A stretch of DNA of 64,000 nt, taken from positions 76,571-140,570 of the forward strand of contig CAYULD010000003.1 in the NCBI GenBank assembly GCA_964445765.1, in the 5' to 3' direction. The DNA comes from an uncultured Rickettsiales bacterium (GTDB taxonomy: Bacteria; Pseudomonadota; Alphaproteobacteria; Rickettsiales; UBA8987). The position numbers were made by a program, and so were the translations under genes. The notes under the pieces were generated by a model that worked only from the letters and a program-made list of their open reading frames with translations, was not told where the DNA came from and ran no database searches. Below are positions 2-8,593 of the stretch, piece by piece. How positions within the stretch are numbered: the stretch's first letter is position 1; each line of letters starts with the position of its first letter.

Positions 2-1687
2 GATTGTGGTATAGGAAAATGCTGTATAAATAAACAATGTGTTTTGTGTGGAGGGGAAACTGATCAGCCTTGCTCCAATCCATCAGATTGTTTAAGTGGA
101 AAAACATGTTGTAATGGTTTGTGTGTTGACACAGGAAGTTTAATAAGTGGTAATTGTAATGATTTACAATGTGATCCAACTTCTAGACCTTGTGCTATGG
201 GCTTTGTATGTTGCAATGGCGTTTGCGAAGAGACAAAAATAAACACATTTGGTAAAGTTGATGGTATTGCAGGTACTTTGGCAAAAGGTGGTGGTGATTT
301 AACGATTGAAGGTTTATCAGAGATTCCTATTTCTTCTGGAGGTGGAGAGGGTTCGGGAGAGCAAGGTTCTATAGCTGGCGATTTAGCTATTACTATAACT
401 CAGCAAGATTTGTGCAATACATGTCAAAGTTCGCAAGATTGCATCGGTGGATTTTGTTGTAATGGAATTTGTAGCCAATCCCTATGTACTAATTTTTGTG
501 GCTCTGATATAGATTGTTCAGATCCAGCTACTCCATTTTGTTGTGGAAATGTATGTCAAGCTGCACCTTGCTCTTGTTCAAATAATTCACAATGTCCATC
601 TAGCTCTCCAAATTGCTGTAATGGAACTTGCAGTCAAGCACCTTGCTCTTGTTCAAATAACTCTCAATGCCCTTCAGGAATGAGTTGTTGTAATAATGTT
701 TGTCAAGTTGGAACTTGCTCTTGTTCAAATAACTCTCAATGCCCTAGCAATAAACCATATTGTTGTGGTGGAAGTTGTCAGTCACAAAATTGTTGCACTA
801 ATAATTCTCAATGTCCGAATGGTCAATGTTGTAATGTAAATAATGGTCAATGTTCATCATCTTATTGTGTTCCTAGTTGTTGTTCAACAGATTCATGCTG
901 TAGCCAAAATTGTCCGGGCTATAATGAGTTTGAGTGTGCGTGTGAAGAGGATCCGTGTATAAGTGGTTTGTGTTCAAATTATAATTTTTGTTTATGCAAT
1001 CCAAATTTATGTAACGGCTCATCTAGTTCTTCAGGTGGTTCAAGCAGTGGTTCTTCAACATCTACCTCATCTAGTTCTTCGGGTGGTAATGGATGTGGTG
1101 CACCTAATTATCAATGTAATAATTATACAATACAAAGTTATAGCTGTGGCTCTCAAGGTTGTTGCGCTCAGGTGGGCTCAATATTTTGGACTAATGCACC
1201 AGACCCTTGTTCAAATACGGTTGGTACAAATTTTCAATTTGAAACTAATATTTCAAACAATTCAGTTATAACATCAGGAAATATAGATGGCTTAAATTGG
1301 GAGTTTAGATTTGGGGGTGTTATCACAAATAATTGCCCTAGTTGCACTGTTCAGCCAATGTGTGCTTTTGTAATTACAAATACTTGTAATGTTATAACAC
1401 AAGATGATCCAGATAATGGAATTTATAGCTTCCCTGTAACTTGTAAATTTGGCGTTGATTATTCTCAAGCAACAATTGTTGAAACTAATATAAATACGGC
1501 AAATCAAGGAAGTGAGCATTGTTCACTTGCAATTAAGTGGAAGAGGGTTCCTGCTGAAAATGGTGTTTGGGCTAGTGCTACAACCACGCAATGTGGCTCA
1601 TCAGGCTGTGGACAATTAGATGGTTTTTGTAGAAATAGCTTCCAAAAATTCCCGATGTATCCTTTAATGTGCACTAATTCTCCTTGA
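2..1687 (+). CDS. Cysteine-rich modular repeat protein, 5'-partial (continues upstream of window)
   Basis: The frame is open from nt 2 (DCGIGKCCINKQCVLCGGE...), so the TTG at 44 in the ORF track is not the real start. About 1 residue in 6 is Cys. At least 9 modules have the form C-x5-C-x4-7-CC-x3-C, followed by a Ser/Gly linker and a Cys-containing C-terminal domain. TGA stop at 1685-1687. Confidence 0.8.
   Translation, partial: DCGIGKCCINKQCVLCGGETDQPCSNPSDCLSGKTCCNGLCVDTGSLISGNCNDLQCDPTSRPCAMGFVCCNGVCEETKINTFGKVDGIAGTLAKGGGDLTIEGLSEIPISSGGGEGSGEQGSIAGDLAITITQQDLCNTCQSSQDCIGGFCCNGICSQSLCTNFCGSDIDCSDPATPFCCGNVCQAAPCSCSNNSQCPSSSPNCCNGTCSQAPCSCSNNSQCPSGMSCCNNVCQVGTCSCSNNSQCPSNKPYCCGGSCQSQNCCTNNSQCPNGQCCNVNNGQCSSSYCVPSCCSTDSCCSQNCPGYNEFECACEEDPCISGLCSNYNFCLCNPNLCNGSSSSSGGSSSGSSTSTSSSSSGGNGCGAPNYQCNNYTIQSYSCGSQGCCAQVGSIFWTNAPDPCSNTVGTNFQFETNISNNSVITSGNIDGLNWEFRFGGVITNNCPSCTVQPMCAFVITNTCNVITQDDPDNGIYSFPVTCKFGVDYSQATIVETNINTANQGSEHCSLAIKWKRVPAENGVWASATTTQCGSSGCGQLDGFCRNSFQKFPMYPLMCTNSP
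560..845. repeat. Tandem 72-75 nt coding repeats (24-25 aa units CSCSNNSQCPxxxxxCCNxxCxxxx)
   Basis: The near-identical string ccttgctcttgttcaaataa recurs at about 566, 641 and 714. A diverged fourth unit lies at about 790-845. Confidence 0.85.
1013..1093. repeat. Low-complexity Ser/Gly-coding tract (NGSSSSSGGSSSGSSTSTSSSSSGGNG)
   Basis: Seen directly in the translation. It separates the Cys-module region from the C-terminal domain. Confidence 0.85.
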
Positions 1688-4448: not shown

Positions 4449-5852
4449 TTATTTGATAAATAATTTATCAAGCTGGATTGTAGTTGCGTAATATTTTGAA
4501 ATAGTTTTTAGATAATCAAGTTTAGCTAATATATTATTTATTTTTGCTATAGCTGTTTTTTCTTCACGCAAATTAACTACAAAAAAATCTGAAGCACCAT
4601 TTGAAAATCTTTTCATTTCAGCTTCTTCCATTCTTTTTGCCAATAAAACTTCTTCCTCAGTAATGCTTTGTTTTTCAACATTTGCCTCAAGATCAACTTT
4701 AATTGAAGAGATTTCAGCGTTAATTTTTTCAAGTAATAATTGCTTTTGCTTTTCAAGCTGAGAAATATTTGCTCTTGCCTCTGTAATCTGCCCTTCACCA
4801 AGCCTTTGTTGAAGTGGTATTGAAACTTTTGCCATTATATTTGCTTCTTCATCTGCTAAAGTTGGGCTGCCTCTACCCCTATCTTTTGATGCCTCAACCG
4901 CAATATCAAACCTTGGGTTAATGGCGTTTTCACCCATTAAGATTTTATTTTTTTGAATTTCAATTTCTGATATTAAAATTTTAATATCGGGGCGAATTTC
5001 ATTGAAATCAAAATCTAGTTTTTTCTTTTTATCATAAGAAATTTTTTCAAAATTATTAGGTAGATTTTCTTTCCCAGCAATTACAGGGTTGCCTGCCTCA
5101 TCACGATAGAATAAAGATAATTCAAAGGCTTGATTATTCAAAATTCTTTCAGATTCAACAAGTTGAGATTTTCTTTTTAGAATATTTTGCCTATTTTCGG
5201 TGAGGAAAATTTTTGCTAAATCGCCCCTCTTAACCCTTTCTTCAAATGCAGATTGCCTCTTTTCTGCAATTTCTAAAAGGTTTTTATAAACATAATAAAT
5301 TAAACCAGCACTAAGCCAATTATAATATGCGTTAAAAGCCTGATATTGAATAGTTACTTGCGTAAATATTTTTTCATACTCTGCTTGTTTTAGTGCAATT
5401 TGTGATGAAATAAGGTTAAACCTTGGCGTATCAATTGCCCTATCCCTTAGTAAAGAAAACATAAGCCCAATACTATATTCGCCATTTTCATTGGTGTTAA
5501 ATTCATCTTCATAAATTGGGAATGTGCCATCAGAAACTTTATAACCAGTATATATTTTTGAACCAAACTCAGGAAGCCTTTTTTCTAGTTTAGAATCAAC
5601 CACCCTGCCATCATAAAAGCCACTAGCTTTAGAAAATAGATTTTGATTGAATTCTAAATCAAAAAAGCCTTCTTTAGATAAAACCTCACCTTGCTTTTGT
5701 TTGATTTTTTCTTGAGCTTCTAAGATTTTAGGATAATTTTTAACTGAAGAAGAAAGCACATCTTCAAGCTGAAGAGGCTTTGCAATTGAGTTACTGCTAA
5801 AAATTATTGAAAAAAATAATAAGAAAAAAATATGTAAAATTAAATGTTTCAT
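4449..5852 (-). CDS. TolC-like outer membrane efflux protein
   Basis: Signal peptide MKHLILHIFFLLFFSIIFSSNSIA, long coiled regions, 467 aa. Its start overlaps the stop of the upstream membrane-fusion gene by 4 nt. Confidence 0.72.
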   Translation of the reverse strand: MKHLILHIFFLLFFSIIFSSNSIAKPLQLEDVLSSSVKNYPKILEAQEKIKQKQGEVLSKEGFFDLEFNQNLFSKASGFYDGRVVDSKLEKRLPEFGSKIYTGYKVSDGTFPIYEDEFNTNENGEYSIGLMFSLLRDRAIDTPRFNLISSQIALKQAEYEKIFTQVTIQYQAFNAYYNWLSAGLIYYVYKNLLEIAEKRQSAFEERVKRGDLAKIFLTENRQNILKRKSQLVESERILNNQAFELSLFYRDEAGNPVIAGKENLPNNFEKISYDKKKKLDFDFNEIRPDIKILISEIEIQKNKILMGENAINPRFDIAVEASKDRGRGSPTLADEEANIMAKVSIPLQQRLGEGQITEARANISQLEKQKQLLLEKINAEISSIKVDLEANVEKQSITEEEVLLAKRMEEAEMKRFSNGASDFFVVNLREEKTAIAKINNILAKLDYLKTISKYYATTIQLDKLFIK

Positions 5853-6898
5853 TTTTTCTTATTTTCCTCTTTATTAGAAACATTATTAATCGGCGGAAAG
5901 TTATTGAGCCTACGCCATAATTCATATCCAAGGCTTACGGTATCAAGTAATATCCAACCATTTGCTTTTGCACCAAATCTCAGGAAGTTTGAATCTGGCC
6001 AAGGGTCTTTAGGGTCTTCGGTAATAATAACTCTAAATAAACCATTTGGTGAAACAGATTTATCAACAACATTAACCTCACCGCCAAAAGTGCCAACTGC
6101 TACAGAAGGCCAACCACTAAATTGAATAGCTGGCCAACCTTCAAATTGCAGGCGAGCCTTACGCCCTTTATAAACAAGTGGGGCATCTCTACCGCTTATA
6201 TAGATTTCAACAGCAGGTTTAACGCCCTCTGGAACAAAGGTTGCAAGCACATCCCCCTCTTTAATAAAAGTGGAAATATCACCTGCTAGAATACTAACAA
6301 CAACCCCATCTCTAGGTGCTTTTAGAAGCTGAGAAGCCTGCCTTGATAATTTAACTTCTGCCTGCGTGAACTCTGCAAAAGTTGCAGCCTGCTTAGAAAG
6401 CAACTCTTTATATTTTATTTTGGCTTTTTCAATTTCTTTGCGAGAGCTTAAATCTTTCTTAAATAATTCTTGTTGCCTAACAAAATCATTATTAGCAGTT
6501 TCGGCAGCAATTCTAGTGGCTTCCCATTTTTTTTCTGCGGCGTCTCTTTCTGCTTTTAGCCTTTGTAAAATTCTTGGGTCAATATCAACAATTTCAACTA
6601 TTGGATCACCCTTTTTAACCTCTGCACCCTCTCTAACATACCATTTTTTAATTCTACCATTTACCATTGCGTTTAGGTTTTGAAGCCTATCTTCAGGGTA
6701 AAAACTTGTAACCGTTCCAGCACCAGAAGTTGTTTGAACCCAAGGTGTAAAAACTAAAAACAAGGTAAAAACTAAAATTGTAACCTTTATTATATTAGAA
6801 ATTGATCTCGCAACTTTAGGAGTTTTAATAGAGTTATATGTTTTGAAATAAACATTATATTTTGGATTAAACTGAGATTTTTTAGCAAGTTCTTTCAT
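5849..6898 (-). CDS. HlyD-family membrane fusion (periplasmic adaptor) protein
   Basis: N-terminal TM helix, lipoyl-like GRIKKWYVREGAEVKKGDPIVEI, coiled coil, then APRDGVV beta-barrel segment. Confidence 0.82.
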   Translation of the reverse strand: MKELAKKSQFNPKYNVYFKTYNSIKTPKVARSISNIIKVTILVFTLFLVFTPWVQTTSGAGTVTSFYPEDRLQNLNAMVNGRIKKWYVREGAEVKKGDPIVEIVDIDPRILQRLKAERDAAEKKWEATRIAAETANNDFVRQQELFKKDLSSRKEIEKAKIKYKELLSKQAATFAEFTQAEVKLSRQASQLLKAPRDGVVVSILAGDISTFIKEGDVLATFVPEGVKPAVEIYISGRDAPLVYKGRKARLQFEGWPAIQFSGWPSVAVGTFGGEVNVVDKSVSPNGLFRVIITEDPKDPWPDSNFLRFGAKANGWILLDTVSLGYELWRRLNNFPPINNVSNKEENKKK

Positions 6899-6910: not shown

Positions 6911-8593
6911 CTATACATTTTGCTTTTTAAGTTCTTCAATCGTGTCAAAAAATTTAGCTTCTTGCCAACCTAAATGCATAAATTTATCAAAAGTTCTTAA
7001 GTTAATTCTATTAGTAAAATAGATTAGAGTTAGATTTTCTATTTTGGATAGACGCTCCATAATTCTTTCTCTTCTGGCATTGGCAACCATATCAAAAAGC
7101 TCACCAATAATAAGAATTTTAGGTTTTGAAATAAACGCACCAGCCAGTTTTAGCCTTATAACTTCTGGGTGAGATAAAGGAAAGCCAGTATGCGTGATTT
7201 TAGTATTAATACCATCTTTTAGGCTTTCAATAGTGTTATAAACTTCAAACATTTTTAGGGTTTCAAATATTTCAGTTCGTGAAGCATTAGGCGCACAAAA
7301 TTTCATAAATTGATAAATTGTTCCCTCTAGCAAAAATGCATTATCAACTATTGAAATATTATTACGATAATTATGAATTTCAAAATCATAAATATCATTA
7401 TCATTAATTAAAACCCTGCCTTTTATGGGCTCAACATAACGATTTAACGAATCAATAAAAGTTTTTTCAACAACATATGATGCAGAGCTTGCTAAGATTT
7501 TTAGGTTTTCAGGAATTGCAAAATTAAGAAGAATTTTTTGATCTCTATAGCTAAACTCTGCATTTTCAAATAATATATTTTTTGAGCAAGCATCTAATAT
7601 TTTATCGCCAGTTTCTTTTTCAAGAGGAACATCAAATAAGTGGGTTATTTCTTCAACGGCAGCACATAGCCTATAATAAAGTTTTAAGTAGCCACCAGCT
7701 TTTGATAAAGCATAAAATATTGCGGATAGAATAAGCTCTGAGGCGACTAATTGCCCAAGCGTTAATTGATTTGCAATTACAAGCGAGCCGCCAATTCCAA
7801 GCAGAGATGCACTAAACACTGCATAAAGCAGGAAGAAAACCACTGATTGAGAGAAAACTTGCTTAAAATGCCTTTTCTTATAGTCATTATATTTCCATAC
7901 TAATTCATCTGACTTTTTTAGAGCATAAACAATACTTCTTTCAGACTTAAAATTGCTATTAATTCTAGCAATTTCTTCTAGCCATTTAGCAACATTATAT
8001 TTTGATTTTGAAAGGCTAATTGCCGTTCTAATTGAGGGCATTCCCCAAATTTTAATTACAATAAAAATTGAAGCAATTAAAATTATGTTGAAAATTAATA
8101 ATACGGGGTGATAAAATGAAACAACTAAAATACCAACTATCGTTTGTAAAGTAAGTGCAAAGCCATCTATAAGAAGTTTTGGCATAATTTCTTGCACATT
8201 CATTACATCAAAATAACGATTAATAAGCTCATCTCGGTTAATACTTTCAAAATAAGAATGTTTTGCGTAAATGTTTGTAAGAACAATTTCAGATACAATT
8301 CTGCTAAAAAAATGCCTTTCAAATACTTCTAAAATATACATTTGCAGGGCGTTTAACAAAACATAAAATAATAGCACCACAAATAATATTACTGAAAGCA
8401 CAATAACTGGTCTATAAATTGCTGTATTTGCAACAGCACCAATTAAAGTTTGAACAGCTATAGGAACGGCTAAAGTAAGAATGCTAATTGCAACGCCATA
8501 TACAAGGGCGAGTTTATAAAATTTATGCTCCGGCGATAATACCGCAAGAAGTAAATCAGTAATTTTTACTTTTCTATCGGCTCTAAAATCCAT
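6911..8593 (-). CDS. ABC exporter-like protein (6-TM domain plus NBD fold) with degenerate ATPase motifs
   Basis: 560 aa with type I exporter architecture. The NBD aligns position by position with HlyB-type NBDs, but the Walker A, Q-loop, signature, Walker B and H-loop residues are all substituted. Confidence 0.75.
   Translation of the reverse strand: MDFRADRKVKITDLLLAVLSPEHKFYKLALVYGVAISILTLAVPIAVQTLIGAVANTAIYRPVIVLSVILFVVLLFYVLLNALQMYILEVFERHFFSRIVSEIVLTNIYAKHSYFESINRDELINRYFDVMNVQEIMPKLLIDGFALTLQTIVGILVVSFYHPVLLIFNIILIASIFIVIKIWGMPSIRTAISLSKSKYNVAKWLEEIARINSNFKSERSIVYALKKSDELVWKYNDYKKRHFKQVFSQSVVFFLLYAVFSASLLGIGGSLVIANQLTLGQLVASELILSAIFYALSKAGGYLKLYYRLCAAVEEITHLFDVPLEKETGDKILDACSKNILFENAEFSYRDQKILLNFAIPENLKILASSASYVVEKTFIDSLNRYVEPIKGRVLINDNDIYDFEIHNYRNNISIVDNAFLLEGTIYQFMKFCAPNASRTEIFETLKMFEVYNTIESLKDGINTKITHTGFPLSHPEVIRLKLAGAFISKPKILIIGELFDMVANARRERIMERLSKIENLTLIYFTNRINLRTFDKFMHLGWQEAKFFDTIEELKKQNV

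What the first reader, a model, noticed from the sequence alone, without database searches (positions are those of the whole stretch)
6911..7591. ABC exporter whose nucleotide-binding domain has lost every catalytic motif
Aligned column by column with HlyB-type NBDs (same length, no gaps needed around Walker A), every catalytic motif differs:

| Motif | HlyB-type | This protein |
|---|---|---|
| Walker A | GRSGSGKST | SASYVVEKT (three Gly lost, the Lys column is Glu) |
| Q-loop | Q | D (SIVDNAFLL) |
| Signature | LSGGQ | LSHPE |
| Walker B | ILIFDE | ILIIGE (Asp to Gly) |
| H-loop | His | Asn (YFTNR) |

- The TM domain and the overall NBD fold length are retained, and the ORF is intact.
- A homodimer of this protein would have two dead ATP sites.
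- Either it needs an unlinked catalytically active partner, or the tripartite machine is energised differently or acts as a passive or regulatory scaffold.
- I am not aware of a characterised T1SS whose only ABC subunit is fully degenerate.
Basis: partly seen in the sequence, partly recalled or inferred. Interest (0 to 1): 0.62.

Follow-up and report, generated by a model that had tools for sequence, protein, structure and literature searches.

The report
ABC-type exporter with dead ATPase
This intact, strongly conserved gene encodes the inner-membrane part of a three-gene, envelope-spanning export pump whose ATP-burning domain has lost every catalytic residue, and related bacteria have deleted that domain altogether, so this pump family almost certainly runs on something other than ATP.

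Summary
The ORF at 6911-8593 (-) is a 560-aa ABC-exporter-fold protein. Its C-terminal domain folds as an NBD (pLDDT 91-97). It has no Walker A, Q-loop Gln, LSGGQ, Walker B Asp or H-loop His, there or anywhere else in the protein.

It is not decay:
- All 120 closest homologues lack a Walker A.
- The NBD is under purifying selection (dN/dS 0.066; TMD 0.051; neighbouring pepA 0.071).
- The cassette of ABC-like gene, about 350-aa adaptor and about 470-aa TolC-like protein recurs in 6/6 loci with unrelated flanks.

New here:
- At least 35 diverged relatives lack the NBD entirely. Their TMD is fused directly to the adaptor, they are under selection, and they interleave with dead-NBD forms on the TMD tree.
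- Longer relatives carry an HlyB-like N-domain and a half-degenerate NBD.
- All forms share a mid-membrane Glu in TM6 (365/368 sequences).
- The genome holds no second family member, only MsbA and a complete PrtD/HlyD pair.

Best reading: an HlyB-derived tripartite exporter that no longer uses ATP hydrolysis, probably driven by the proton gradient, with the dead NBD kept as a structural or gating module. The substrate is unknown. I found no description of this family in the searchable literature.

The parts
6911..8593 (-). Gene for the 560-aa ABC-exporter-fold protein (P0001): six-helix TMD plus a catalytically dead NBD-like domain
   Evidence: ORF list and translation. Pfam PF00664 is above its cut-off and PF00005 is below it. 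AF2 model: pLDDT 83, pTM 0.80. Full-length Foldseek hits to TM287/288, PCAT1 and HlyB.
7619..8593 (-). Transmembrane domain, residues 1-325. This is the most conserved part of the family.
   Evidence: Hydropathy gives six TM segments. Mean pairwise identity in the family is 56% for the TMD against 40% for the NBD, the reverse of MsbA versus PrtD at 15% and 35%. The TMD alone finds 1043 representative clusters at E<=1e-30.
7724..7765 (-). TM6 core motif LTLGQLVASELILS (residues 277-290), with Glu286 (7736-7738) in the middle of the hydrophobic segment. Glu286 is the proposed proton or cation (or substrate) site.
   Evidence: Glu286 is conserved in 251/251 ~560-aa forms, 33/33 NBD-less fusions, 68/71 forms with an N-terminal domain and 13/13 short forms. 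MsbA has Phe and PrtD has Ser at this column. TM6 spans 277-295 by hydropathy.
8105..8116 (-). FYHP motif (residues 160-163) in the periplasmic TM3-TM4 turn, a family hallmark
   Evidence: Y161, H162 and P163 are nearly invariant in all architectural forms.
8450..8464 (-). PIAVQ motif in TM1 (residues 44-48), a family hallmark
   Evidence: P44 and Q48 are conserved (Q or E in the forms with an N-terminal domain).
7943..7954 (-). Coupling helix 2 (NFKS, residues 214-217), conserved only where an NBD is present
   Evidence: F115, N212, F214, K216, S217 and E325 are at least 85% conserved in dead-NBD forms. They are deleted or variable in the NBD-less fusions.
6914..7591 (-). NBD-like domain, residues 335-560: fold kept, catalytic residues gone
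   Evidence: pLDDT 91-97 with NBD secondary-structure order. dN/dS is 0.066 against a 90%-identical orthologue.
7460..7486 (-). Walker A-equivalent SASYVVEKT (residues 370-378). All three Gly are lost and the Lys column is Glu376.
   Evidence: In the model, DSSP shows a 2-residue turn and an early helix start in place of the P-loop.
7328..7354 (-). Q-loop-equivalent SIVDNAFLL (residues 414-422). The Gln column is Asn418 and the conserved Asp417 is one column before it.
   Evidence: In the family the Gln column is R95/121 and the preceding column is D107/121.
7163..7177 (-). Signature-equivalent LSHPE (residues 473-477). The family consensus is P-L-S-x-x-E.
7091..7117 (-). Walker B-equivalent ILIIGE plus LFD (residues 493-501). 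The Asp column is Gly497. Asp501, at the D-loop position, is invariant.
   Evidence: D120/121 at the D-loop Ser column. Invariant-column lists.
7007..7021 (-). H-loop-equivalent YFTNR (residues 525-529). The His column is Asn528.
   Evidence: N81, Y14, H9 of 121.
5849..6898 (-). Gene for the 349-aa membrane-fusion (periplasmic adaptor) protein P0002. It starts 12 nt after the ABC-like gene ends.
   Evidence: Pfam HlyD_3 and Biotin_lipoyl_2. One N-terminal TM helix. It is orthologous (34% identity, E 1e-82) to the adaptor of the Walker-A-bearing cassette, but its hairpin is about 93 residues shorter.
4449..5852 (-). Gene for the 467-aa TolC-like outer-membrane factor P0003. It overlaps the adaptor gene by 4 nt.
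   Evidence: Pfam OEP, 80.5 bits, two repeats. It is one of five OEP proteins in the genome.

Best explanation
**What it is**
The gene encodes the inner-membrane subunit of a self-contained three-gene, envelope-spanning exporter. The parts are an ABC-fold protein, a short HlyD-type adaptor and a TolC-like duct. The lineage descends from HlyB-like type I secretion ABC transporters.

**Shown**
- The cytoplasmic domain keeps the NBD fold but has lost every residue needed to bind and hydrolyse ATP.
- The loss is family-wide and is maintained by purifying selection.
- The NBD is evolutionarily dispensable. Sister proteins join the same TMD directly to the same adaptor with no NBD.

**Inferred**
- Transport does not depend on ATP hydrolysis by this protein.
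- The type IV exporter TMD dimer alternates access as a secondary transporter. It is most probably driven by the proton gradient through the invariant mid-membrane Glu286 in TM6, with Gln48, Tyr161-His162 and Gln281 nearby.
- The dead NBD pair survives as a non-catalytic dimerisation or gating module. It is still coupled to the TMD through the conserved coupling helices.
- The TMD::adaptor fusions force a 1:1 ratio. This fits a HlyB6:HlyD6-type assembly under one TolC-like trimer.

**Substrate**
Unknown. No cargo gene is linked, and MarR or ArsR-type regulators flank some cassettes. This leans towards a small molecule or peptide rather than a large RTX-type protein.

**My odds for the layers**

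| Claim | Odds |
|---|---|
| Functional and independent of ATP hydrolysis | about 0.85 |
| Proton-driven specifically | about 0.45 |
For: - **Motifs absent.** They are absent at the aligned columns and everywhere else.
- **Family-wide loss.** 0/120 homologues have a Walker A, and the Lys column is Q98, E10, K1.
- **Selection.** dN/dS is 0.066 for the NBD, 0.051 for the TMD and 0.071 for pepA.
- **Fold kept.** NBD pLDDT is 91-97, with full-length Foldseek matches to ABC exporters.
- **Constraint moved to the TMD.** TMD identity is 56% against 40% for the NBD, the reverse of MsbA versus PrtD.
- **Conserved cassette.** It recurs in 6/6 loci with unrelated flanks.
- **NBD-less forms.**
  - At least 35 TMD::adaptor fusion clusters of 655-700 aa have no NBD segment.
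  - Each of 3/3 fusion loci examined is followed by an OEP gene.
  - The fusions are under purifying selection, omega about 0.04-0.07.
  - They interleave with dead-NBD forms on the TMD tree, and well-supported branches force at least 3-4 changes of form.
- **Coupling helices.** Their residues are conserved only where an NBD exists.
- **Glu286.** It is conserved in 365/368 sequences across all architectures and sits in the middle of TM6.
- **Graded decay in longer relatives.** Walker A is kept in 40/59, but catalytic Glu in 18/59, His in 10/59, with no Q-loop Gln or SGG.
- **No partner in the genome.** There is no second family member, only MsbA and PrtD.
- **Stoichiometry.** PDB entries for the HlyB/D complex list 6 HlyB and 6 HlyD chains.
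- **Precedents.** SbmA is a proton-driven transporter with the ABC-exporter TMD fold (PMC13316013). NBD-less MsbA-MD carries out delta-pH-dependent ethidium transport (PMC4979069).
Against: - Nothing here measures transport, proton coupling, ATP binding or expression.
- A conserved membrane Glu could bind a cationic substrate or a metal rather than a proton.
- The NBD is under as much constraint as the TMD between close orthologues. It therefore does something specific that this model describes only vaguely.
- dS is near saturation (pS 0.59-0.71), so the omega values are approximate.
- The tree used the quick method with long outgroup branches. The number and direction of NBD losses are uncertain.
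- No substrate is identified.
- The cassette is rare, in 2/300 genomes sampled across the class. Its role is therefore accessory.
Confidence: 0.55

Rival explanations
1. It is a passive or gated conduit, or a structural scaffold. The ABC-fold dimer, adaptor and TolC-like protein form an un-energised channel or envelope tether. This would be CFTR-like, with the dead NBD pair as the gate, and any net flux would follow the substrate's own gradient.
For: - No ATPase residues remain.
- The NBD is kept and coupled to the TMD, as expected for a gate.
- No energy-coupling partner is encoded in the cassette.
Against: - NBD-less fusions would lack the proposed gate, yet they are conserved.
- The invariant buried Glu286, with its Gln and His hallmark residues, looks more like a coupling or binding site than a pore lining.
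- An ungated duct to the outside would be costly to the cell (inference).
Confidence: 0.2
2. It is a half-transporter that needs an unlinked, catalytically active ABC partner (MsbA or PrtD in this genome) to form a heterodimer with one working ATP site.
For: - Heterodimeric exporters with one degenerate site are well known, and TM287/288 and TmrAB are top structural matches.
- The genome encodes two intact ABC exporters.
Against: - Both the Walker A and the signature of P0001 are dead. Both composite sites of any heterodimer would therefore be defective (established ABC mechanism).
- TMD identity to MsbA and PrtD is 14-15%.
- PrtD has its own HlyD adaptor.
- The genome has no second member of this TMD family.
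- No second ABC exporter gene is linked in the 10 loci examined. The only nearby ABC ATPase, in L016, belongs to an OpuA-type importer.
- NBD-less fusions exist.
Confidence: 0.07
3. The NBD-like domain still binds a nucleotide or another ligand in a non-canonical way. It then powers or regulates transport through new family-specific residues (Asp417, Pro472-Leu473, Glu477, Asp501).
For: - The NBD is under strong purifying selection, with its own conserved residues.
- Longer relatives keep the Walker A and the Walker B Asp. In those proteins nucleotide binding without hydrolysis is plausible.
Against: - No P-loop of any kind remains. The model replaces it with a 2-residue turn.
- The Walker A region is among the most variable stretches in the family.
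- The whole domain is dispensable in sister clades.
Confidence: 0.1
4. It is a decaying pseudogene or a relic with no function.
For: All catalytic motifs are lost.
Against: - The 560-codon frame is intact.
- dN/dS is 0.057.
- Hundreds of homologues share the same features at 36-49% identity.
- The cassette is conserved and the genes are tightly packed, with a 12-nt gap and a 4-nt overlap.
Confidence: 0.01

Closest known systems
HlyB-HlyD-TolC and related type I secretion systems (LssB/LssD, PrtD/E/F); PDB 7sgr, 8dck
   Same: - The cassette logic is the same: a type IV ABC-fold inner-membrane protein, an HlyD-type adaptor and a TolC-like duct.
- The best NCBIfam hit of P0001 is TIGR01846 HlyB.
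- Longer family members match full-length HlyB and PCAT1, including the N-terminal C39-like domain.
- HlyB and HlyD are present at 6 chains each, which matches the 1:1 ratio forced by the TMD::adaptor fusions.
   Different: - Every ATPase motif is lost here.
- Scores fall far below the family cut-offs (103 bits against 725).
- This clade has no N-terminal C39-like domain.
- The adaptor is short (349 aa against 478 aa).
- No RTX or other cargo gene is linked.
- The TMD carries its own hallmark residues (Glu286, YHP, PIAVQ) that HlyB, PrtD and MsbA lack.
SbmA/BacA (SLiPT family): proton-driven peptide importers with the ABC-exporter TMD fold and no NBD (PMC13316013)
   Same: An ABC type IV TMD fold works without ATP. 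It is thought to have arisen from a full ABC transporter (a YddA-like ancestor) by losing its NBD. This parallels the dead-NBD and NBD-less forms found here.
   Different: - It is a different lineage. P0001 gives no PF05992 or PF06472 hit, only PF00664.
- SbmA is a stand-alone importer, with no adaptor and no outer-membrane partner.
- Here the NBD fold is retained in most members.
Engineered NBD-less MsbA-MD and LmrA-MD (PMC4979069)
   Same: The membrane domain of an ABC exporter alone carries out delta-pH-dependent substrate transport. The family here would be the natural counterpart.
   Different: - Those are laboratory truncations of active ATPases and are less efficient than the wild type.
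- The carboxylates implicated in MsbA (D41, E149, D252) are not the TM6 Glu conserved here.
Heterodimeric ABC exporters with one degenerate site (TM287/288, TmrAB, LmrCD, TAP1/2)
   Same: They tolerate non-canonical residues in the NBD motifs, and they are the top structural matches.
   Different: They always keep one fully consensus site. Here both sites of the homodimer would lack the Walker A, Walker B Asp, signature, Q-loop Gln and H-loop His.
EmrAB-TolC and other secondary (MFS or RND) tripartite pumps
   Same: The proposed energy source is the proton gradient. The adaptor is short and has no membrane-proximal domain detected by sequence. MarR-type regulators sit next to some cassettes.
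   Different: The inner-membrane component has the ABC-exporter fold, not an MFS or RND fold.

Membership tests
ABC transporter (ATP-binding cassette) superfamily, type IV exporter | Six-helix type IV exporter transmembrane domain (Pfam PF00664) | tested here: met
   PF00664 scores 36.4 bits against a cut-off of 28. Foldseek gives full-length matches to TM287/288, PCAT1 and HlyB at E about 1e-22.
ABC transporter (ATP-binding cassette) superfamily, type IV exporter | NBD scoring above the Pfam PF00005 gathering threshold | tested here: not met
   24.4 bits against a cut-off of 25. The match covers profile positions 26-134 only and so skips the Walker A.
ABC transporter (ATP-binding cassette) superfamily, type IV exporter | Walker A GxxGxGK[ST] | tested here: not met
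   SASYVVEKT sits at the aligned columns and no P-loop-like pattern occurs anywhere. 0/120 homologues have one.
ABC transporter (ATP-binding cassette) superfamily, type IV exporter | ABC signature LSGGQ | tested here: not met
   LSHPE here; the family consensus is PLSxxE.
ABC transporter (ATP-binding cassette) superfamily, type IV exporter | Walker B hhhhDE, Q-loop Gln and H-loop His | tested here: not met
   ILIIGE (Asp column is Gly), Gln column is Asn418 and His column is Asn528.
ABC transporter (ATP-binding cassette) superfamily, type IV exporter | ATP binding and hydrolysis | not testable with these tools
   Needs purified protein.
Type I secretion system ABC component (HlyB / LssB / PrtD subfamilies) | Score above the NCBIfam subfamily cut-offs (TIGR01846, TIGR03375, TIGR01842) | tested here: not met
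   103 against 725.6, 86 against 693 and 73 against 510 bits. The genome's real PrtD scores 594 bits.
Type I secretion system ABC component (HlyB / LssB / PrtD subfamilies) | Operon with an HlyD-type adaptor and use of a TolC-like outer-membrane factor | tested here: met
   The adaptor and OEP genes lie directly downstream. The same order is found in 6/6 homologous loci.
Type I secretion system ABC component (HlyB / LssB / PrtD subfamilies) | Linked cargo gene (RTX or other protein with a C-terminal secretion signal, or a GG-leader peptide) | tested here: not met
   The flanks are housekeeping genes (TsaD, START-like, HAD, PepA, HtpG). No common neighbour appears across the 10 loci.
Type I secretion system ABC component (HlyB / LssB / PrtD subfamilies) | N-terminal C39 peptidase or C39-like domain (HlyB/LssB groups) | tested here: not met
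   P0001 begins about 20 residues before TM1. About 730-aa relatives have such a domain by fold, so the ancestry fits but this clade has lost it.
SbmA/BacA (SLiPT) secondary transporters | Sequence membership (PF05992 SbmA_BacA or PF06472) | tested here: not met
   No such Pfam hit at E<=1.
SbmA/BacA (SLiPT) secondary transporters | Proton-gradient-driven transport by an ABC-fold TMD without ATPase | not testable with these tools
   This is the proposed mode of action. It rests only on sequence logic and precedent (PMC13316013, PMC4979069).

The most novel reading that the evidence does not exclude
This protein belongs to a natural, widespread class of at least 1000 clusters at 50% identity. 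Its members are TolC-coupled exporters in which an ABC-type (type IV) membrane domain is powered by the proton-motive force through a buried TM6 glutamate. That would be a further energisation class for tripartite pumps, beside ABC/ATP, RND and MFS. The family would preserve every stage of the change from primary to secondary transport: a half-degenerate NBD, a fully dead NBD, and no NBD with the TMD fused to the adaptor.
Probability: 0.4. Interest if true: 0.85.

Novelty: new variant of a known kind. Interest (0 to 1): 0.72.

Why it matters
- **The open question.** How far the membrane domains of ABC exporters can work without ATP has been argued mainly from engineered truncations (LmrA-MD, MsbA-MD) and from one natural case, SbmA.
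- **What this family adds.** It offers a natural, selected series within one lineage and inside a tripartite, TolC-coupled machine. The series runs from ATP-binding but probably non-hydrolysing, to completely dead, to NBD-deleted.
- **Direct tests it allows.**
  - What a non-catalytic NBD is kept for.
  - Whether a single buried carboxylate can replace the ATP power stroke.
  - Whether the HlyB6:HlyD6 architecture is general, since the fusions force a 1:1 ratio.
- **Annotation.** These proteins are annotated as 'ABC transporter ATP-binding protein', which is misleading for metabolic and resistance predictions.

Tried and rejected
- **Hidden motifs.** I looked for an intact Walker A or B elsewhere in the protein with loose patterns. 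None was found.
- **Pseudogene.** Rejected on dN/dS and on family conservation.
- **Partner within the same family.** Rejected: only one match in the genome.
- **Linked cargo or a second ABC exporter gene.** None was found in 10 loci. The ABC ATPase in L016 belongs to an OpuA-type importer next to it.
- **Anti-phage defence role.** No PADLOC hits.
- **Curated family.** NCBIfam has none. All hits are far below their cut-offs.
- **Promoter and terminator scan.** Not above the shuffled expectation in this AT-rich DNA, so uninformative.
- **Sequence identification of the ~180-aa N-domain of longer relatives.** Pfam and PDB phmmer found nothing. It was resolved only by fold.
- **Equivalence of Glu286 to LmrA Glu314.** By position counting from the NBD boundary they are about 20 residues apart, so I make no such claim (own reasoning; LmrA was not aligned).
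- **Literature.** Six full-text searches found no description of a fully degenerate or NBD-less ABC-fold tripartite exporter. Two reviews of tripartite pumps (PMC8277102, PMC13328181) list only ATP-driven ABC pumps and PMF-driven secondary classes. I read the first only by term search within its first 300,000 characters.
Full report
**1. What is in the window**

Three tightly packed genes lie on the minus strand:

| Gene | Coordinates | Product | Spacing |
|---|---|---|---|
| P0001 | 8593-6911 | 560 aa | first of the three |
| P0002 | 6898-5849 | 349 aa | 12-nt gap after P0001 |
| P0003 | 5852-4449 | 467 aa | 4-nt overlap with P0002 |

- Pfam calls them ABC_membrane plus a sub-threshold ABC_tran, an HlyD-type adaptor and an OEP/TolC-like protein.
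- The neighbours are housekeeping genes: pepA and htpG upstream; a START-like gene, tsaD and a HAD hydrolase downstream.
- The window is about 31% G+C.
- The closest homologue is 90% identical and comes from a MAG labelled Rickettsiales bacterium.
- The genome is 1.69 Mb in 6 contigs and 99% complete.

**2.

I aligned P0001 with the same genome's intact MsbA and, independently, by phmmer with PDB ABCB proteins.

| Motif | Canonical | P0001 |
|---|---|---|
| Walker A | GHSGGGKST | SASYVVEKT (Lys column = Glu376) |
| Signature | LSGGQ | LSHPE |
| Walker B | ILLLDE | ILIIGE (Asp column = Gly497) |
| H-loop | AHR | TNR (His column = Asn528) |

- The Q-loop Gln column is Asn418. This is a trivial correction.
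- The Pfam ABC_tran match scores 24.4 bits against a cut-off of 25. It begins at profile position 26, so the HMM finds no Walker A either.
- Loose pattern searches find no P-loop, hhhhD[DE] or SGG anywhere in the protein.

**3. It is a family trait under selection, not decay**

- None of the 120 best homologues (36-90% identity; Alpha- and Gammaproteobacteria) has G....GK[ST].
- Column counts over 121 sequences:
  - Walker A Lys column: Q98, E10, K1.
  - Walker B Asp column: S47, T37, N29.
  - Catalytic Glu column: Q35, R32, E17.
  - H-loop His column: N81, Y14, H9.
  - Signature: L-S-x-x-E.
- Against the 90%-identical orthologue (L007), dN/dS is 0.051 for the TMD, 0.066 for the NBD, 0.066 for the adaptor, 0.100 for the OMF and 0.071 for pepA. 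dS is close to saturation, so these are approximate, but pN is far below pS.
- AlphaFold2 with a 120-sequence alignment gives pLDDT 83 and pTM 0.80. The NBD scores 91-97 and has the normal order of strands and helices. DSSP shows a two-residue turn where the glycine-rich loop should be.
- Foldseek aligns the whole chain to TM287/288, PCAT1, HlyB, TmrAB and MsbA.
- Canonical exporters conserve the NBD more than the TMD (MsbA versus PrtD: 35% against 15%). This family does the reverse: TMD 56%, NBD 40%.

**4. The cassette is the unit**

In six of six homologous loci from unrelated genomes the order is the same: ABC-like gene, then a 314-350-aa adaptor, then a 461-493-aa OEP protein. The flanks are unrelated. 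No second ABC gene and no common candidate cargo gene is linked. An ArsR/HTH_5-type regulator adjoins two of the cassettes.

**5. The NBD can be dispensed with altogether**

- A search of relatives turned up a 712-aa open frame (L015). In it the family's TMD runs straight into the adaptor, with no NBD between them.
- A search on the junction found at least 35 distinct clusters of such TMD::adaptor fusions.
  - They are 655-700 aa long.
  - They are 33-49% identical to P0001's TMD and 44-58% identical to P0002.
  - None has an NBD segment.
- Hydropathy gives them seven TM helices. This places the adaptor in the periplasm, as required.
- In three of three fusion loci the next gene is an OEP-type protein.
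- Two fusions that are 83% identical give omega 0.04 for the TMD and 0.07 for the adaptor.
- On a tree of the TMD, fusions and dead-NBD forms interleave. Well-supported branches force at least 3-4 changes of architecture. This was the quick method with long outgroup branches, so the exact count is uncertain.
- Planctomycete proteins of about 1200 aa join N-domain, TMD, NBD-like domain and adaptor in one chain.

**6. What is conserved with and without an NBD**

- Residues conserved only in NBD-bearing members lie in the two coupling helices and the TMD-NBD linker: F115, N212, F214, K216, S217 and E325. In the fusions they are deleted or variable. The dead NBD is therefore still docked on the TMD.
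- Residues conserved in every form lie in the membrane core and at the periplasmic turns:
  - P44 and Q48 in TM1.
  - Y161-H162-P163 in the TM3-TM4 turn.
  - G280-Q281 and E286 in TM6.
- Glu286 is present in 365 of 368 sequences.
- It sits in the middle of the TM6 hydrophobic segment, residues 277-295.
- It is Phe in MsbA and Ser in PrtD.

**7. The wider family and its origin**

- The TMD alone, run by phmmer against 1.84 billion representatives, finds 1043 clusters at E<=1e-30 and 1870 at E<=1e-3. This is a discrete family, not ABC exporters in general.
- About 40% of the 150 best hits are 677-790 aa long and carry an extra N-terminal domain of about 180 aa.
- Their NBDs are half-degenerate:
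  - Walker A in 40/59.
  - Walker B Asp in 58/59.
  - Catalytic Glu in 18/59.
  - H-loop His in 10/59.
  - No Q-loop Gln.
  - Signature PLSxGQ.
- One such gene sits in the same cassette, with a 445-aa orthologous adaptor, an OEP gene and a divergent MarR-type regulator.
- Its AlphaFold2 model (pLDDT 86) matches full-length HlyB (8dck, 7sgr) and PCAT1 over about 700 columns, so the match includes their N-terminal C39-type domain. Sequence methods did not detect this domain.
- The lineage therefore descends from HlyB-like type I secretion ABC proteins. The window's clade has lost the N-domain and all ATPase chemistry, and has a shortened adaptor hairpin.

**8. A partner is unlikely**

- The genome has three PF00664 proteins: MsbA, a PrtD-type T1SS ABC with intact motifs, and P0001.
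- PrtD has its own 463-aa HlyD adaptor. The genome has five OEP proteins, so the systems need not share parts.
- The genome holds no second member of this TMD family.
- In an ABC dimer each site is built from the Walker A, Walker B and H-loop of one subunit and the signature of the other (established mechanism). P0001 lacks both halves, so even a heterodimer would have no intact site.

**9. Mechanism**

Shown:
- ATP hydrolysis by this protein is excluded, as far as sequence can exclude it.
- The protein is functional.
- The NBD is dispensable in sister lineages.

Inferred:
- The TMD dimer works as a secondary transporter.
- It is probably proton-coupled through Glu286.
- The dead NBDs act as a dimerisation or gating module.

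Precedents:
- SbmA has an ABC-exporter TMD fold, is proton-driven, and is thought to derive from a YddA-like ABC transporter by NBD loss (PMC13316013).
- NBD-less MsbA-MD performs delta-pH-dependent ethidium transport (PMC4979069).

The fusions force a 1:1 ratio of TMD to adaptor. This matches the six HlyB and six HlyD chains in 7sgr and 8dck.

The rivals are a passive gated conduit, a hidden partner, and non-canonical ligand binding by the NBD. They are weighed in the Rival explanations section.

**10. Distribution and novelty**

- The cassette is sporadic. It is present in all three genomes of the window's genus and absent from the 15 other genomes sampled in its family. It occurs in 3 of the 23 other families of the order that were sampled.
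- It is present in 2 of 300 genomes sampled across the class.
- No curated NCBIfam model covers it.
- Six full-text searches and two reviews of tripartite pumps gave no description of a fully degenerate or NBD-less ABC-fold tripartite exporter.
- Earlier unchecked notes of this scan report similar dead-ATPase or ATPase-less HlyB-like systems in Bacteroidota, Phycisphaerales and Nitrospira. I read them after finding the fusions independently, and I treat them as leads only.

**Limits**

The placement of residues rests on hydropathy, DSSP and alignment.

Noticed in passing
L015:469-2607 (-), a genome of the same order; also L016:7001-8998, L017:7001-8980, L018:7001-9085: These 655-712-aa proteins join the family's TMD directly to the HlyD-type adaptor with no NBD. 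Each is followed by an OEP gene. There are at least 35 diverged clusters, all under purifying selection.
   Followed up: yes
L019:6405-8606 (P0267) and 58 other representatives of 677-790 aa: These longer relatives have a Cys-less, C39-like N-terminal domain that is detectable only by fold. Their NBD is half-degenerate: it keeps the Walker A and the Walker B Asp but mostly lacks the catalytic Glu, Q-loop Gln, SGG and H-loop His. They sit in the same three-gene cassette, with a divergent MarR-type regulator.
   Followed up: partly
P0162, P0163, P0165 (Tautonia, Planctomycetota; about 1200 aa): A single chain holds the N-domain, the TMD, an NBD-like domain (GPDASGRS, with no Walker A Lys) and a long-hairpin adaptor.
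   Followed up: partly
L021:2307-6399 (genome C3:140806-144898, just beyond the window end): A canonical PrtD-type T1SS ABC gene (594 bits to TIGR01842) is followed by an unannotated 146-aa ORF and a 463-aa HlyD adaptor, with secB immediately upstream. No OMF or obvious cargo gene is adjacent.
   Followed up: partly
window 5849-6898 (-) compared with L019:8603-9940: The window's adaptor lacks about 93 residues of the alpha-helical hairpin that is present in the orthologous adaptor of the Walker-A-bearing cassette. The C-terminal motif FEGWPA(I/V)QF(S/A)GWPSVAVGTFGG...GYELWR..N(N/G)FPP is almost unchanged.
   Followed up: partly
L006:7568-7876, L009:7482-7859, L019:5928-6335: Small ArsR/HTH_5 or MarR-type regulator genes lie immediately upstream of the cassette in three unrelated genomes. 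This hints at induction by a small molecule or metal. The window has no such gene.
   Followed up: no
window 44-1687 (+): A 547-aa ORF has no Pfam match at E<=0.001.
   Followed up: no
Representatives P0252, P0261, P0263, P0269, P0270, P0290, P0309, P0311 (314-353 aa): These TMD-only proteins of the family may be stand-alone membrane domains or fragments at contig ends.
   Followed up: no
L015:2614-3906 (-): The gene upstream of the NBD-less fusion in that genome is a 430-aa protein of unidentified type (not searched). Some called versions of the fusion there carry a 28-66-aa N-terminal extension, so its true start codon is uncertain.
   Followed up: no
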